A stretch of DNA of 64,000 nt, taken from NCBI RefSeq assembly GCF_024298765.1, contig NZ_CP101210.1; one strand, given 5' to 3'. Positions 55,395 to 58,860 of the stretch are shown one piece after another. The notes below the pieces were generated by a model. That model had not been told where the DNA came from. It worked only from the letters and a program-made list of their open reading frames with translations, and did no database searches. Numbering within the stretch: the stretch's first letter is position 1; every line of letters starts with the position of its first letter. This DNA is from Escherichia coli (GTDB lineage Bacteria > Pseudomonadota > Gammaproteobacteria > Enterobacterales > Enterobacteriaceae). The position numbers and the translations under genes were made by a program.

Positions 55395-56349
55395 GTAAGC
55401 GTAAACCGACCGTTGTATTGACGCTTATTTATAGGGGAGAACTACGTTCCATGGCAGGAGTTCGTCAGTAAGCGTACAGCCTGAACCGTCTGGTCAGAAT
55501 CTGACGCATTAGACAAAGTGGTGTCCACAAAATAAGTAGTGGGAACCAAAGTGTCAGATATGCAGAAAAATGTGACTCCCGGCAGGCGAAAAGGCTGCCC
55601 TAATTATCCTCCCGAATTTAAACAGCTGCTCGTTGCTGCCTCCTGTGAACCCGGGATATCCATCTCAAAACTTGCTCTTGAAAATGGCATTAACGCCAAT
55701 CTGTTGTTCAAATGGCGACAACAATGGCGCGAGGGAAAGCTGCTATTACCTTCTTCAGAGAGCCCCCAGCTACTTCCTGTGACTCTCGATGCAGCTGCCG
55801 AACAGCCAGAATCGCTCGCAGAGGACCCGGAAACCCTCAGTATCAGCTGTGAGGTAACGTTCCGGCACGGGACGCTCCGCTTCAATGGCAATGTCAGCGA
55901 AAAACTCCTGACTCTGCTGATACAGGAACTGAAACGATGATCCCGTTACCTTCCGGGACCAAAATTTGGCTGGTTGCCGGTATCACCGATATGAGAAATG
56001 GCTTCAACGGCCTGGCTGCGAAAGTACAGACGGCGCTGAAAGACGATCCCATATCCGGCCATGTTTTCATTTTCCGGGGCCGCAGCGGCAGTCAGGTTAA
56101 ACTGCTGTGGTCCACCGGTGACGGGCTGTGCCTCCTGACCAAGCGGCTGGAGCGTGGGCGCTTCGCCTGGCCGTCAGCCCGTGATGGCAAAGTGTTCCTT
56201 ACGCAGGCGCAGCTGGCGATGCTGCTGGAAGGTATCGACTGGCGACAGCCTAAGCGGCTGCTGACCTCCCTGACCATGCTGTAAATCTCTTTATCCTGGT
56301 TGTCACAGAATAAGCCCGGTAAAATACGGGCTTATGAACGACATCTCTT
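55395..56349 (+). mobile_element. Second IS66-family element type, partial: left end plus tnpA (55539..55940) and tnpB (55937..56284); tnpC absent
   Basis: Begins GTAAGCGTAAACCGACCGTTGTATTGACGCTTATTTATAGG...; orf1/orf2 homologous to 58350..58775 / 58003..58353. Confidence 0.6.
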
Positions 56350-58860
56350 GTAAGCGTCAACGGAGCACCGTATTGACGCTTATTTATTGGTGAGTACTAC
56401 GTTCCATGGCAGGAGTTCGTCAACACAGTTGGAGGGCCATTCCGGCAGTACGCTCAGAATATGGCGCAGATACGCTTCCGGATCGATACCGTTCAGACGG
56501 CAGGTGCCGATCAGCCCGTACAGCAGTGCTCCACGCTCGCCGCCGTGATCGCTACCGAAGAACACGTAATTTTTCTTTCCGAGACAGACTGCACGAAGCG
56601 CTCTTTCCGCTGTGTTATTGTCCGCTTCTGCCAAACCATCATCACTGTAATAACAGAGGGCGTCCCACTGATTCAGTACATAGCTGAACGCTTCGCCCAG
56701 TCTGGATTTTTTCGACAGCGTGCCATTCTTCTCCACCATCCATTCATGCAGCGACGTCAGTAACGCTTTGCTTCGCTGCTGCCTGGCTGCAAGACGCTCT
56801 GACTCTGGTAATCCCCGTATTTCATCCTCGATGGCGTACAGTTCACTGATTCGCTTCAGGGCTTCTTCTGCCGTCGCACTTTTGCTGCTGATGTATACAT
56901 CGTGGATTTTTCGCCGGGCATGGGCCCAGCACGCAACTTCTGTCAGTGCACCACCTTCACGTTCTGCACTGAACAACCTGTCGTAACCTGTGAACGCATC
57001 CGCCTGCAGGATACCCCGGAAGGGGCGAAGGTGTTGCTCCGGGTGTTTCCCCTGCCGGTTCGGCGAGTACGCGAACCAGACCGCTGGAGGAGATGACGAA
57101 CCCACATTGCGATCATCCCGGACATACGTCCAGATACGCCCTGTTTTCGCCTTTTTCTGACCCGGTGCCAGTACCTTTACCGGTGTGTCATCAGTGTGAA
57201 CCTTGCGGGTATTCATTACATAACGGTACAGGGCATCATTCACCGGTGTCATTAACTGGCAGCACGCGTCAACCCAGTTGGAGAGTAAGGCCCGGCTCAG
57301 TTCGACACCCTGGCGGGCAAAGATTTCACTCTGACGATACAGTGGCAGATGTTCGCAGTATTTTCCCGTTAACACGCGGGCAAGTAATCCGGGGCCCGCG
57401 ATACCACGCTCTATCGGGCGGGACGGCGCCGGTGCTTCAACAATACAGTCACATTTTGTACAGGCTTTTTTTACCCGTTCTGTGCGGATCACTTTCAGGG
57501 CACTGCTCACCAGTTCCAGCTGTTCAGCGCTGACTTCCCCCAGATAATCCAGCTCACCGCCACACTCCGGGCAACAGCTTTCTTCTGGCTCCAGGCGGTG
57601 TATTTCACGGGGAAGGTGTGCCGGTAACGGACGACGATGGCGCGACTGTCGCAACTGGCGGGGAACCTGAGGATCGTCTTCCCGCCCACTGTAACGATCG
57701 CTGTCCTGTTCACGTTGTTTCAGCAGAGCCTCAGCCAGTTCAACTTCACGACGCAGTTTTTCAGAACGGGTACCGAACAGCATCCGGTGCAGTTTTTCTA
57801 TCTGAGCCCGCAGATGTTCTATTTCCCGTTCATCTTCTTCGATCTTTTCTTCGGCACGTGCCAGTGCAGAGCGCAGGAAGGCCTCCGTCTCTTCAACCAG
57901 ACTCAGTTGCTGGTCTTTCTGACGGAGCTGGCTTTCCAGTTCTGCAATGCGAATGAGGTATTTCTGACTCATGGCCGTTTTTATAATGCGGCCAGGCGTT
58001 TTTTACAACATTGTCAGTGCGTTAAGGCGGAATGTTTTTGGCTGACGCCAGTCCAGCTTATCGAGGAGCATTGCCAGTTGCGAGCGGGTAATGGATACCT
58101 TGCCGTCACGTACCGCAGGCCAGATAAACTGGCCTTCCTCCAGGCGTTTGGTGAACAGGCACAGACCATCAGCATCAGCCCAAAGAATTTTAACGGTGTC
58201 ACCCCGTCGGCCACGGAAGATAAACAGGTGACCGGAGAAGGGATTATCATTCAGCACATGTTGTACCTGTTCTCCCAGTCCGTTGAAGGATTTACGCATA
58301 TCGGTAACGCCGGCAACGAGCCAGATACGGGTACCTGATGGGAGTGAGATCATCTTCCCCTCCCGGTCAGTTCACGGATCAACACCGTGAGCAGCTCTGG
58401 CGATGGATTTTCCAGCGTCATGTTACCGTGACGGAATTCCACCTTGCAGGAACTGGCACTGACTCTGGTCTGAGTGGAAGTGGATAAAGACGGCGCAATG
58501 GCCGCCACAGGTTCTTTCTGCTCATCCGGCGTTATTTCTACAGGTAATAATTCAACGCCAGTGTCAGAAGAGGTCGTTACCGGAAGACGCCGCGAAACAC
58601 GCCCTTCGTTCTGCCAGAGCCTGAGCCATTTGAAAATAACATTATCATTGACGCCATTTTCACGTGCAATCTGTGCAACACAAGCTCCAGGTTGTGATGC
58701 CAGTTCCACCATACGAAGTTTGAATTCATTCGAATAGTTTTTACGAGGTTCTTTTCGCCAGTCCTGTAATTCCATACTTAGATGTCCGTCTATATCAGAT
58801 GGGCGTCTAAGTTACCAATTCTCGTCTGATGGCTACATACGGCGGTCAGTTTACGCTTAC
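56350..58860 (-). mobile_element. Third IS66-family element, complete gene set in reverse orientation (tnpA 58350..58775, tnpB 58003..58353, tnpC 56380..57972)
   Basis: Low-coordinate end GTAAGCGTCAACGGAGCACCGTATTGACGCTTATTTATTGG..., high-coordinate end ...CAGTTTACGCTTAC; 530-aa TnpC with CCPECGGEL motif; flanking 8-mers differ (no TSD). Confidence 0.75.

What the first reader, a model, noticed from the sequence alone, without database searches (positions are those of the whole stretch)
55395..58860. Two further IS66-family elements in opposite orientation sharing a ~75-bp end sequence that contains an internal hairpin
The left end of the forward partial element (55395-) and the low-coordinate end of the reverse complete element (56350-) share ~75 bp (GTAAGCGT.AAC.GA.C...GTATTGACGCTTATTTAT.GG.GAG.ACTACGTTCCATGGCAGGAGTTCGTCA). 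Within it GTAAGCGTC and GACGCTTA(T) form an inverted repeat. The forward element has tnpA and tnpB but no tnpC; the reverse element is complete but lacks a target duplication and truncates the neighbouring IS3-family element. This looks like recombination between IS66-family elements rather than independent insertions.
Basis: seen in the sequence. Interest (0 to 1): 0.4.

Follow-up and report, generated by a model that had tools for sequence, protein, structure and literature searches.

The report
Mobile stack of IS66-family insertion-sequence pieces
The region is a pile-up of one intact and four broken IS66-family jumping genes in an E. coli genomic island; it is ordinary in kind, but the whole 3.8-kb pile has itself jumped twice onto plasmids as a single unit.

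Summary
The 75-bp repeat is real: 55395-55467 and 56350-56422 share 64 of 73 bases. It was misassigned, though. The copy at 55395 is not the left end of the forward element. It is an orphan right end (X) of a third IS66-family element, comprising the terminal repeat, the stop codon and the last 13 codons of tnpC. The forward element is ISEc8 nt 1-882, and its own terminus starts at 55468. The reverse element (R, 56350-58860) is a complete 2511-bp relative of ISEc23/ISEc47. Two more truncated left ends lie upstream: E1 at 52387-52437, and E2 at 52438-55394, which is split by a complete ISCro1 with an 8-bp duplication. Every junction falls exactly on an IS terminus. The stack from E1 to R (3767 bp) is identical on two plasmids. 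There it is flanked by 8-bp target duplications, and intact empty sites exist in thousands of other plasmids. It therefore transposes as one unit, bounded by E1's orphan end and R's left end. Strains with E1-E2-X plus a complete ISEc8 and no R show the earlier state. The hairpin is strong in R, weak in X, and absent from ISEc8 and ISCro1. This is ordinary IS biology with one mildly novel twist.

The parts
52387..52437 (+). E1: a 51-bp orphan left end of an IS66-family element (GTAAGCGTAAAGCCAATGCCGTCTG...). It is the outer boundary of the mobile unit.
   Evidence: The terminus motif was found. The shared sequence in the chromosome and in two plasmids begins exactly here, next to the 8-bp duplications. 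It matches R's left end at 21 of 27 positions.
52438..55394 (+). E2: 250 bp of the left end of an IS66-family element (terminal repeat plus the first ~58 codons of an ISCro1-type tnpA, HTH). It lies in two pieces, 52438-52543 and 55251-55394, separated by the ISCro1 insertion.
   Evidence: About 90% identical to the left ends of complete IS66-family elements on plasmids, with the match starting at the terminus and ending at the X junction. Weak HTH Pfam hits. PGAP annotates it as 'helix-turn-helix domain-containing protein, missing C-terminus'.
52544..55242 (-). Complete ISCro1-type IS66-family element (2699 bp; tnpC 52574-54145, tnpB 54165-54512, tnpA 54512-55189). It is a later, standard insertion into E2.
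   Evidence: The 8-bp duplication AAAGATAT lies at 52536-52543 and 55243-55250. The element is absent from most genomes that carry the stack (query coverage 144-5101; L001). PGAP names it ISCro1 family.
55395..55467 (-). X: a 73-bp orphan right end of an IS66-family element, comprising the terminal repeat, the tnpC stop codon and the last 13 codons.
   Evidence: 64/73 identical to R's right end. The minus strand translates to DELLPWNVVLPYK*. ISEc8's own terminus follows at 55468.
55468..56349 (+). ISEc8 nt 1-882 of 2442: left terminal repeat, tnpA 55560-55940, tnpB 55937-56284, and the first 16 nt of tnpC (ATG at 56334). It is cut off by R's right terminus.
   Evidence: 99.2% identical to ISEc8 copies on plasmids. 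Aligned base for base to the 2442-bp ISEc8 of pO145-13516 up to nt 882. The complete ISEc8 occupies this same site in strains 26561 and Ecol_AZ159.
56350..58860 (-). R: a complete 2511-bp IS66-family element related to ISEc23/ISEc47 (tnpC 56380-57972, tnpB 58003-58353, tnpA 58350-58775). It is the only intact transposition module inside the unit. Its right end at 56350-56422 is the second copy of the block, and 56351-56382 forms the hairpin.
   Evidence: All IS66 Pfam domains are present. Discrete 2511-bp copies at 99.7-100% identity occur on many plasmids, with perfect 8-bp duplications in 3 of 4 checked. The right end is identical to ISEc23 and ISEc47 over 75 nt. The hairpin folds at -17 kcal/mol, z = -4.2.
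58861..60096 (+). An IS3-family transposase gene that lacks its N-terminus, truncated at R's left terminus. It is flanking DNA, not part of the unit.
   Evidence: PGAP annotates it as 'IS3 family transposase, missing N-terminus'. It has rve, HTH_21 and HTH_Tnp_1 domains. A longer copy in L012 extends at least 100 bp further upstream.

Best explanation
Window 52387-58860 is a stack of IS66-family pieces. In order they are E1 (51-bp left end), E2 (250-bp left end, later split by a complete ISCro1), X (73-bp right end), ISEc8 nt 1-882, and R, a complete 2511-bp ISEc23/ISEc47-like element. Each older piece keeps its outer terminus on the low-coordinate side and is cut exactly at the terminus of the next piece. 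So the joints were made by transposition into resident IS66 elements, followed by loss of the DNA on the other side.

The '75-bp shared end' is simply the normal right end of two related elements, R and the remnant X. ISEc8 inserted 73 bp inside X.

Shown: E1-E2-X plus a complete ISEc8 existed first at this island site, and R then landed in ISEc8 at nt 882.

Shown: the whole stack from E1's terminus to R's left terminus (3767 bp without ISCro1) now behaves as one transposable unit. It has inserted into traR of one IncF plasmid and downstream of repA in another, each time making the 8-bp duplication typical of the IS66 family.

Inferred: R's TnpA/TnpB/TnpC catalyse this. They would pair R's left end with E1's orphan end, which resembles R's left end as well as R's own right end does (21 of 27 positions each).

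Inferred: the lack of a duplication around R or the stack in the chromosome reflects a later R-end-adjacent deletion or an exchange between two R copies. That event removed the ISEc8 3' part and joined R to the IS3 remnant.
For: - **Anatomy.** Termini were located and aligned. X encodes a TnpC C-terminus.
- **R is active.** Stand-alone 2511-bp copies carry the duplications ACAAGATC, CAAACATC and GACTGTCG.
- **ISCro1 is a later insertion.** It is flanked by the duplication AAAGATAT.
- **Earlier state.** Strains 26561 and Ecol_AZ159 have the same left flank, then E1-E2-X, then a complete ISEc8 and no R. Metagenome contigs show both states. The E1|E2 junction occurs in 130 genomes and the ISEc8|R junction in 115.
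- **Unit mobility.** The unit is 100% identical (L004) or has one mismatch (L003) on plasmids p14EC020b and pMS1679-1. It is bounded by E1 and R's left end and flanked by CTTAATTA and TGTTTATC.
- **Empty sites.** Both reconstructed empty sites occur uninterrupted at 100% identity in thousands of plasmids.
- **Same-strain copies.** Strain 14EC020 carries both the chromosomal and the plasmid copy.
Against: - No experiment shows which transposase moved the unit. ISEc8 or other IS66-family copies in the same cell could act in trans.
- Only two transposed copies are known, and they may not be independent. One could derive from the other.
- The chromosomal copy has no duplication at any candidate pair of ends.
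- No intermediate such as X+ISEc8 alone, ISEc8::R with its duplication, or R inside the IS3 element was found. How the older part of the stack and the R|IS3 joint arose is therefore reconstruction, not observation.
- The parent elements of E1 and X were not found.
Confidence: 0.8

Rival explanations
1. One reading: the two elements were joined by homologous recombination between IS66-family copies through the shared ~75-bp end, rather than by insertions.
For: R has no target duplication and the neighbouring IS3 element is truncated. IS66 copies are known to drive deletions by homologous recombination, leaving hybrid flanks (PMC6778807, read).
Against: - Both copies of the block are still present as direct repeats around ISEc8'. 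A crossover between them would have removed it.
- They are only 88% identical.
- The ISEc8 terminus follows the first block to the base, and R's terminus follows ISEc8 nt 882 to the base.
- The pre-R state contains the first block but not the second.
- No reciprocal product was found.
Confidence: 0.05
2. R lacks a duplication because two R copies recombined homologously, one in ISEc8 at this site and one inside the IS3 element elsewhere. The surviving hybrid R then carries one flank from each parent.
For: R is a multicopy element with near-identical copies on many plasmids and chromosomes. The DNA to the right of R differs completely from the pre-R state: a tRNA-Sec island end here versus a tRNA-Phe island end there. 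The same outcome is documented for IS66 in Agrobacterium (PMC6778807).
Against: Neither parental junction exists as a contiguous sequence in 5,426 complete E. coli genomes. This holds for R left end | ISEc8 nt 875 onward and for IS3 5' part | R right end. The R|IS3 junction is absent from 72,556 plasmids.
Confidence: 0.35
3. Serial end capture ('snowball'). The active element repeatedly landed inside another IS66-family element. At its next move it used that element's outer terminus instead of its own, adding one fragment per cycle: X, then E2, then E1. The plasmid hops would be the latest cycle.
For: All fragments keep their outer terminus on the same side and sit on one side of the intact element. 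The last step, use of a distal foreign terminus, is directly documented. Similar stacks occur independently on pAA of E. coli 042 and next to ISEc23 in strain M15.
Against: The X|ISEc8 junction was found only in the full E1-E2-X context with the same chromosomal flank, in 5 of 5 metagenome contigs and in all genomes inspected, so no free intermediate unit is known. Three nested insertions followed by one end-adjacent deletion need about the same number of events.
Confidence: 0.25
4. The hairpin in the shared end is a functional element of these insertion sequences, for example a 3' stem-loop that stabilises or terminates tnpC mRNA, or a structure used during transposition.
For: In R it is a 10-bp perfect stem directly after the tnpC stop codon, reaching the last base but one of the element (-17 kcal/mol, z = -4.2, 1 of 200 shuffles as good). 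It is identical in ISEc23 and ISEc47.
Against: - It is weakened to shuffle level in X, the only diverged relative available (z = -0.3), with no compensatory change.
- It is absent from the right ends of ISEc8, ISCro1 and the E2-like element, and from all left ends.
- Most of the stem consists of bases fixed for other reasons: the GTAAGCG terminus, the conserved GTATTGA motif and the stop codon.
- No U-run follows it.
Confidence: 0.15

Closest known systems
IS66-family insertion sequences of Enterobacteriaceae: ISEc8 (2442 bp), ISEc23/ISEc47 and ISCro1
   Same: They share the tnpA-tnpB-tnpC organisation, with HTH_Tnp_1, TnpB_IS66 and DDE_Tnp_IS66 (+zf, LZ, C-terminal) domains. Their terminal repeats begin GTAAGCG and they make 8-bp target duplications. 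The forward piece is ISEc8 itself (99.2%). R's right end is identical to ISEc23/ISEc47 over 75 nt. The inserted 2699-bp element is named ISCro1 family by PGAP.
   Different: PGAP gives R's transposase no specific IS name, so R is a relative rather than a copy of the named elements. Four of the six IS66 pieces here are terminal fragments only. The chromosomal R copy has no duplication.
Compound transposons and transposition units that use an alternative or surrogate end (Tn10/Tn5-type compound transposons; ISEcp1 units of the IS1380 family; mosaic non-autonomous Tn3-derived elements, PMC4133298)
   Same: A single intact transposition module moves a segment longer than itself by pairing one of its own ends with a more distant end-like sequence. 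The event produces a normal target duplication.
   Different: The distal end here is a genuine 51-bp terminal fragment of a different IS66-family element, not a second full IS copy or a chance look-alike. The 'cargo' is only IS debris, with no passenger gene. I did not find a description of this behaviour for the IS66 family in the held literature. That search cannot show it is undescribed.
IS66-mediated deletion by homologous recombination in Agrobacterium pAt15955 (PMC6778807)
   Same: A single IS66-family copy is left with two unrelated 8-bp flanks after a rearrangement. R shows the same picture here.
   Different: In that case both parental copies and their duplications were identified. 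Here no parental junction was found in any collection searched.

Membership tests
IS66 family (element R, 56350-58860) | Three consecutive genes tnpA, tnpB and tnpC, with the DDE transposase in tnpC | tested here: met
   The 530-aa product has DDE_Tnp_IS66 (2e-97), zf-IS66, LZ_Tnp_IS66 and DDE_Tnp_IS66_C. The 116-aa product has TnpB_IS66 (1e-36). The 141-aa product has HTH_Tnp_1. tnpA and tnpB overlap by 4 nt.
IS66 family (element R, 56350-58860) | Imperfect terminal inverted repeats of about 20-30 bp that begin GTAAGCG | tested here: met
   The two ends match at 21 of 27 positions, and both begin GTAAGCGT.
IS66 family (element R, 56350-58860) | 8-bp target-site duplication | tested here: inconclusive
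   Met for stand-alone copies on three of four plasmids. Not met for the copy in this window (CATCTCTT / CTTTATCC).
ISEc8 (forward piece, 55468-56349) | Near-identity to the 2442-bp ISEc8 over its full length | tested here: not met
   99.2% identical, but only nt 1-882 are present. tnpC is missing apart from its first 16 nt. It is a fragment of ISEc8, not a complete member.
Compound (composite) transposon | Two complete IS copies flanking passenger DNA, with the outer ends used for transposition | tested here: not met
   Only one intact IS (R) lies inside the mobile unit as found on plasmids. The other boundary is a 51-bp end fragment, and there is no passenger gene.
Transposable unit moved as a whole | The same sequence in unrelated sites, bounded by the same two termini, flanked by direct target duplications, with intact empty sites elsewhere | tested here: met
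   Three contexts share exactly E1..R. The duplications are TGTTTATC and CTTAATTA. The empty sites are 100% identical in thousands of plasmids.
Transposable unit moved as a whole | Dependence on the unit's own (R) transposase | not testable with these tools
   This needs a genetic assay. R's proteins in the unit are identical to those of a stand-alone copy that has a duplication (WP_001593684.1).

The most novel reading that the evidence does not exclude
IS66-family elements may grow and diversify by end capture. After landing inside a relative, the element's transposase switches to that relative's outer terminus, so stacks of foreign ends build up on one side and travel with the element. This would be a general route to new composite IS66 elements and to mobilising adjacent DNA. 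It would also imply that IS66 transposases tolerate heterologous family termini that match about 21 of 27 positions.
Probability: 0.2. Interest if true: 0.5.

Novelty: new member of a known kind. Interest (0 to 1): 0.3.

Why it matters
The practical value is for annotation. The '75-bp shared end' is not a long terminal repeat or a recombination scar. It is a separate orphan IS end, and the region holds six IS66-family pieces rather than two. The one point of wider interest is that a heap of IS debris is not inert. With one intact member it moves as a 3.8-kb unit from the chromosome into conjugative plasmids, in one case disrupting traR. This shows that an IS66-family transposition system can use an orphan end from a different family member about 1.26 kb beyond its own terminus. 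Little is known about the IS66 transposition mechanism, so a natural example of alternative end choice gives a ready-made substrate for testing end recognition.

Tried and rejected
1. **Inversion or exchange between two R copies.** I searched 5,426 E. coli genomes for the reciprocal junction (R left end | ISEc8 nt 875 onward). Only non-contiguous two-piece hits turned up.
2. **R first inserted in the IS3 element.** I searched for IS3 5' part + CTTTATCC | R right end and found no contiguous hit. The R|IS3 junction is absent from plasmids.
3. **Chromosomal empty site.** I joined the left flank to the IS3 flank and got no hit covering both. A 6-nt extension of the IS3 match into the left flank proved to be chance when a longer IS3 copy was aligned.
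4. **Free intermediates of the stack.** The exact X|ISEc8 junction gave 5 contigs in metagenomes, all in the full E1-E2-X context with the same flank.
5. **Parents of E1 and X.** There were no exact matches among 100,044 species-representative genomes. Plasmid searches found only ~90% relatives of E2 and nothing specific for E1 or X.
6. **E2+X as a miniature IS (MITE-like).** Rejected because X's outer terminus faces the same way as E2's, so the pair has no inverted ends.
7. **Hairpin as an intrinsic terminator.** No U-run follows it within the element.
8. **Literature.** Han et al. 2001 on IS679 is not held. Searches for IS66 alternative-end or composite behaviour gave nothing specific.
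Full report
**Observation**

A direct repeat links 55394-55467 to 56349-56422 (74 nt, 88%). Over the 73-bp block itself, 64 positions agree.
- On the plus strand, tnpA (55560-55940) and tnpB (55937-56284) have no tnpC after them.
- On the minus strand there is a full tnpA-tnpB-tnpC set (58350-58775, 58003-58353, 56380-57972).
- All these products carry the expected IS66-family Pfam domains.
- The window belongs to a large E. 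coli genomic island that ends at tRNA-Sec in strain 104.
- A 5.1-kb segment around the finding occurs at 80% or more coverage in 108 of 5,426 complete E. coli genomes.

**What the block is**

A scan for the IS66 terminus motif GTAAGCG found six plus-strand termini between 52387 and 56350 and one minus-strand terminus at 58860.

The block at 55395 is followed at 55468 by a second terminus, GTAAGCGTACAGCCTGAACC. This second terminus is the true left end of ISEc8. The stretch 55468-56349 is 99.2% identical to ISEc8 copies on plasmids. It aligns base for base with nt 1-882 of the 2442-bp ISEc8 of pO145-13516, ending 16 nt into tnpC.

Read on the minus strand, the block encodes DELLPWNVVLPYK followed by a stop codon. 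That is the C-terminus of an IS66 TnpC; R has DELLPWNVVLTNK*. So 55395-55467 is an orphan right end (X) of a third element related to R and oriented like R. It is not part of the forward element. The shared 75 bp is the ordinary right end of R-type elements: a terminal repeat of about 27 nt, a spacer, the stop codon and 13 codons. ISEc23 and ISEc47 carry exactly R's version.

**Full anatomy**

| Piece | Coordinates | What it is |
|---|---|---|
| E1 | 52387-52437 | 51 bp of an IS66-type left end |
| E2 | 52438-52543 + 55251-55394 | 250 bp of another left end with the start of an ISCro1-type tnpA; about 90% identical to complete elements on plasmids, matching from the terminus to the X junction |
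| ISCro1 | 52544-55242 | Complete 2699-bp element that splits E2; duplication AAAGATAT on both sides; absent from most genomes with the stack |
| X | 55395-55467 | 73-bp orphan right end |
| ISEc8' | 55468-56349 | ISEc8 nt 1-882 |
| R | 56350-58860 | Complete 2511-bp element |
| IS3 remnant | from 58861 | IS3-family gene lacking its N-terminus |

R is a discrete, active element. Copies of exactly 2511 bp at 99.7-100% identity occur on many plasmids, and three of four inspected have perfect 8-bp duplications.

**History**

Strains 26561 and Ecol_AZ159 carry the same left flank followed by E1-E2-X, a complete ISEc8 (tnpC frameshifted) and no R. In Ecol_AZ159 the island there ends at tRNA-Phe. 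Metagenome contigs show both states.

The E1|E2 junction occurs in 130 genomes and the ISEc8|R junction in 115. The stack E1-E2-X-ISEc8 therefore predates R. R entered ISEc8 at nt 882, and the ISEc8 3' part and everything to its right were then replaced by the IS3 remnant and the tRNA-Sec end of the island.

How that last joint arose is unresolved. Neither the reciprocal junction, nor an R insertion in the IS3 element, nor the R|IS3 junction on plasmids, nor an empty site was found. The remaining options are an R-end-adjacent deletion and an exchange between two R copies, as documented for IS66 in Agrobacterium (PMC6778807).

**The stack moves as a unit**

Two IncF plasmids carry the stack. 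These are pMS1679-1 and p14EC020b; the latter comes from a strain that also has the chromosomal copy.
- The 3466 bp from X to R are 100% identical on both plasmids.
- The 301 bp of E1+E2 are identical in p14EC020b and differ at one base in pMS1679-1.
- In both plasmids homology starts at the first base of E1 and ends at the last base of R.
- The flanks are 8-bp direct repeats: TGTTTATC inside traR, and CTTAATTA downstream of the IncFII repA.
- Joining each pair of flanks with one copy of the 8 bp gives a sequence present uninterrupted, at 100% identity, in thousands of other plasmids.

These are therefore true transposition events of a 3767-bp unit bounded by E1's orphan end and R's left end. 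R's left end matches E1 at 21 of 27 positions and X at 22. It matches R's own right end at 21, but ISEc8's left end at only 16 and E2's at 14. This makes E1 a plausible substrate for R's transposase. That R's proteins did the work is inference.

**Origin of the older stack**

Every fragment keeps its outer terminus on the same side and is cut at the next terminus. Two routes fit this pattern.
- Three nested insertions followed by one end-adjacent deletion.
- Serial capture of outer ends, of which the plasmid hops would be the latest example.

I found no free intermediates, so I rate serial capture as possible but unsupported. Independent stacks on pAA of E. coli 042 and next to ISEc23 in strain M15 show that IS66-in-IS66 arrangements are common.

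**Hairpin**

In R, TAAGCGTCAA pairs with TTGACGCTTA directly after the tnpC stop codon (-17 kcal/mol, z = -4.2). In X the stem is interrupted and no better than shuffles (z = -0.3). It is absent from the right ends of ISEc8, ISCro1 and the E2-like element and from all left ends. Much of the stem consists of bases fixed for other reasons. A function is not excluded, but nothing here requires one.

**Verdict**

The recombination interpretation is not supported for the block and remains only one of two options for R's missing duplication.

The region is an ordinary IS66-family mosaic with one modestly new feature: the mosaic transposes as a unit using a foreign orphan end. I did not find this behaviour described for the IS66 family in the held literature, which does not prove it is undescribed.

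Noticed in passing
L005 4005-4600 (E. coli 042 plasmid pAA): An independent stack of the same kind. An E2-like left end is cut after 218 bp by an R/ISEc23-type right end of about 75 bp. An IS256-like 5' fragment follows, and that is cut by a complete ISCro1-like element.
   Followed up: partly
L017 400-450 (E. coli strain M15 chromosome): The right terminus of an ISEc23 copy abuts the ATG of another IS66-family tnpA. This is another IS66-next-to-IS66 joint at an exact terminus.
   Followed up: no
window 18516-20601: Another partial IS66-family element on the minus strand (tnpA, tnpB, and a tnpC lacking its C-terminus). Its left terminus GTAACCGTCTCATTT... ends at 20601, and ISEc31 and IS30 pieces lie next to it in the matching genome.
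   Followed up: no
L022 1496-3783 (metagenome contig OMEX01000080.1): A pre-R version of the stack in which ISEc8 carries an internal deletion of nt 2071-2218.
   Followed up: no
window 58861-60400: The module of IS3-family remnant plus IS91-family remnant to the right of R is widespread on E. coli plasmids, especially from poultry (1180 plasmid places in the search). The one other copy inspected, chromosomal locus L012 in strain CFSAN064036, is also N-terminally truncated.
   Followed up: partly
L013 / L015 versus L001: The same cargo module (TonB-dependent receptor, DUF4198 gene, IS66 stack) sits in an island ending at tRNA-Phe in strain Ecol_AZ159 and in an island ending at tRNA-Sec in strain 104 and the window type. 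The breakpoint between the two island versions is at R.
   Followed up: partly
window 55243-56349 versus L013 9150-10256: The E2 3' part, X and ISEc8' differ at 7 of 1107 positions between the window and the pre-R strain, while the 1702 bp upstream are 100% identical. This may reflect gene conversion among ISEc8 copies.
   Followed up: no
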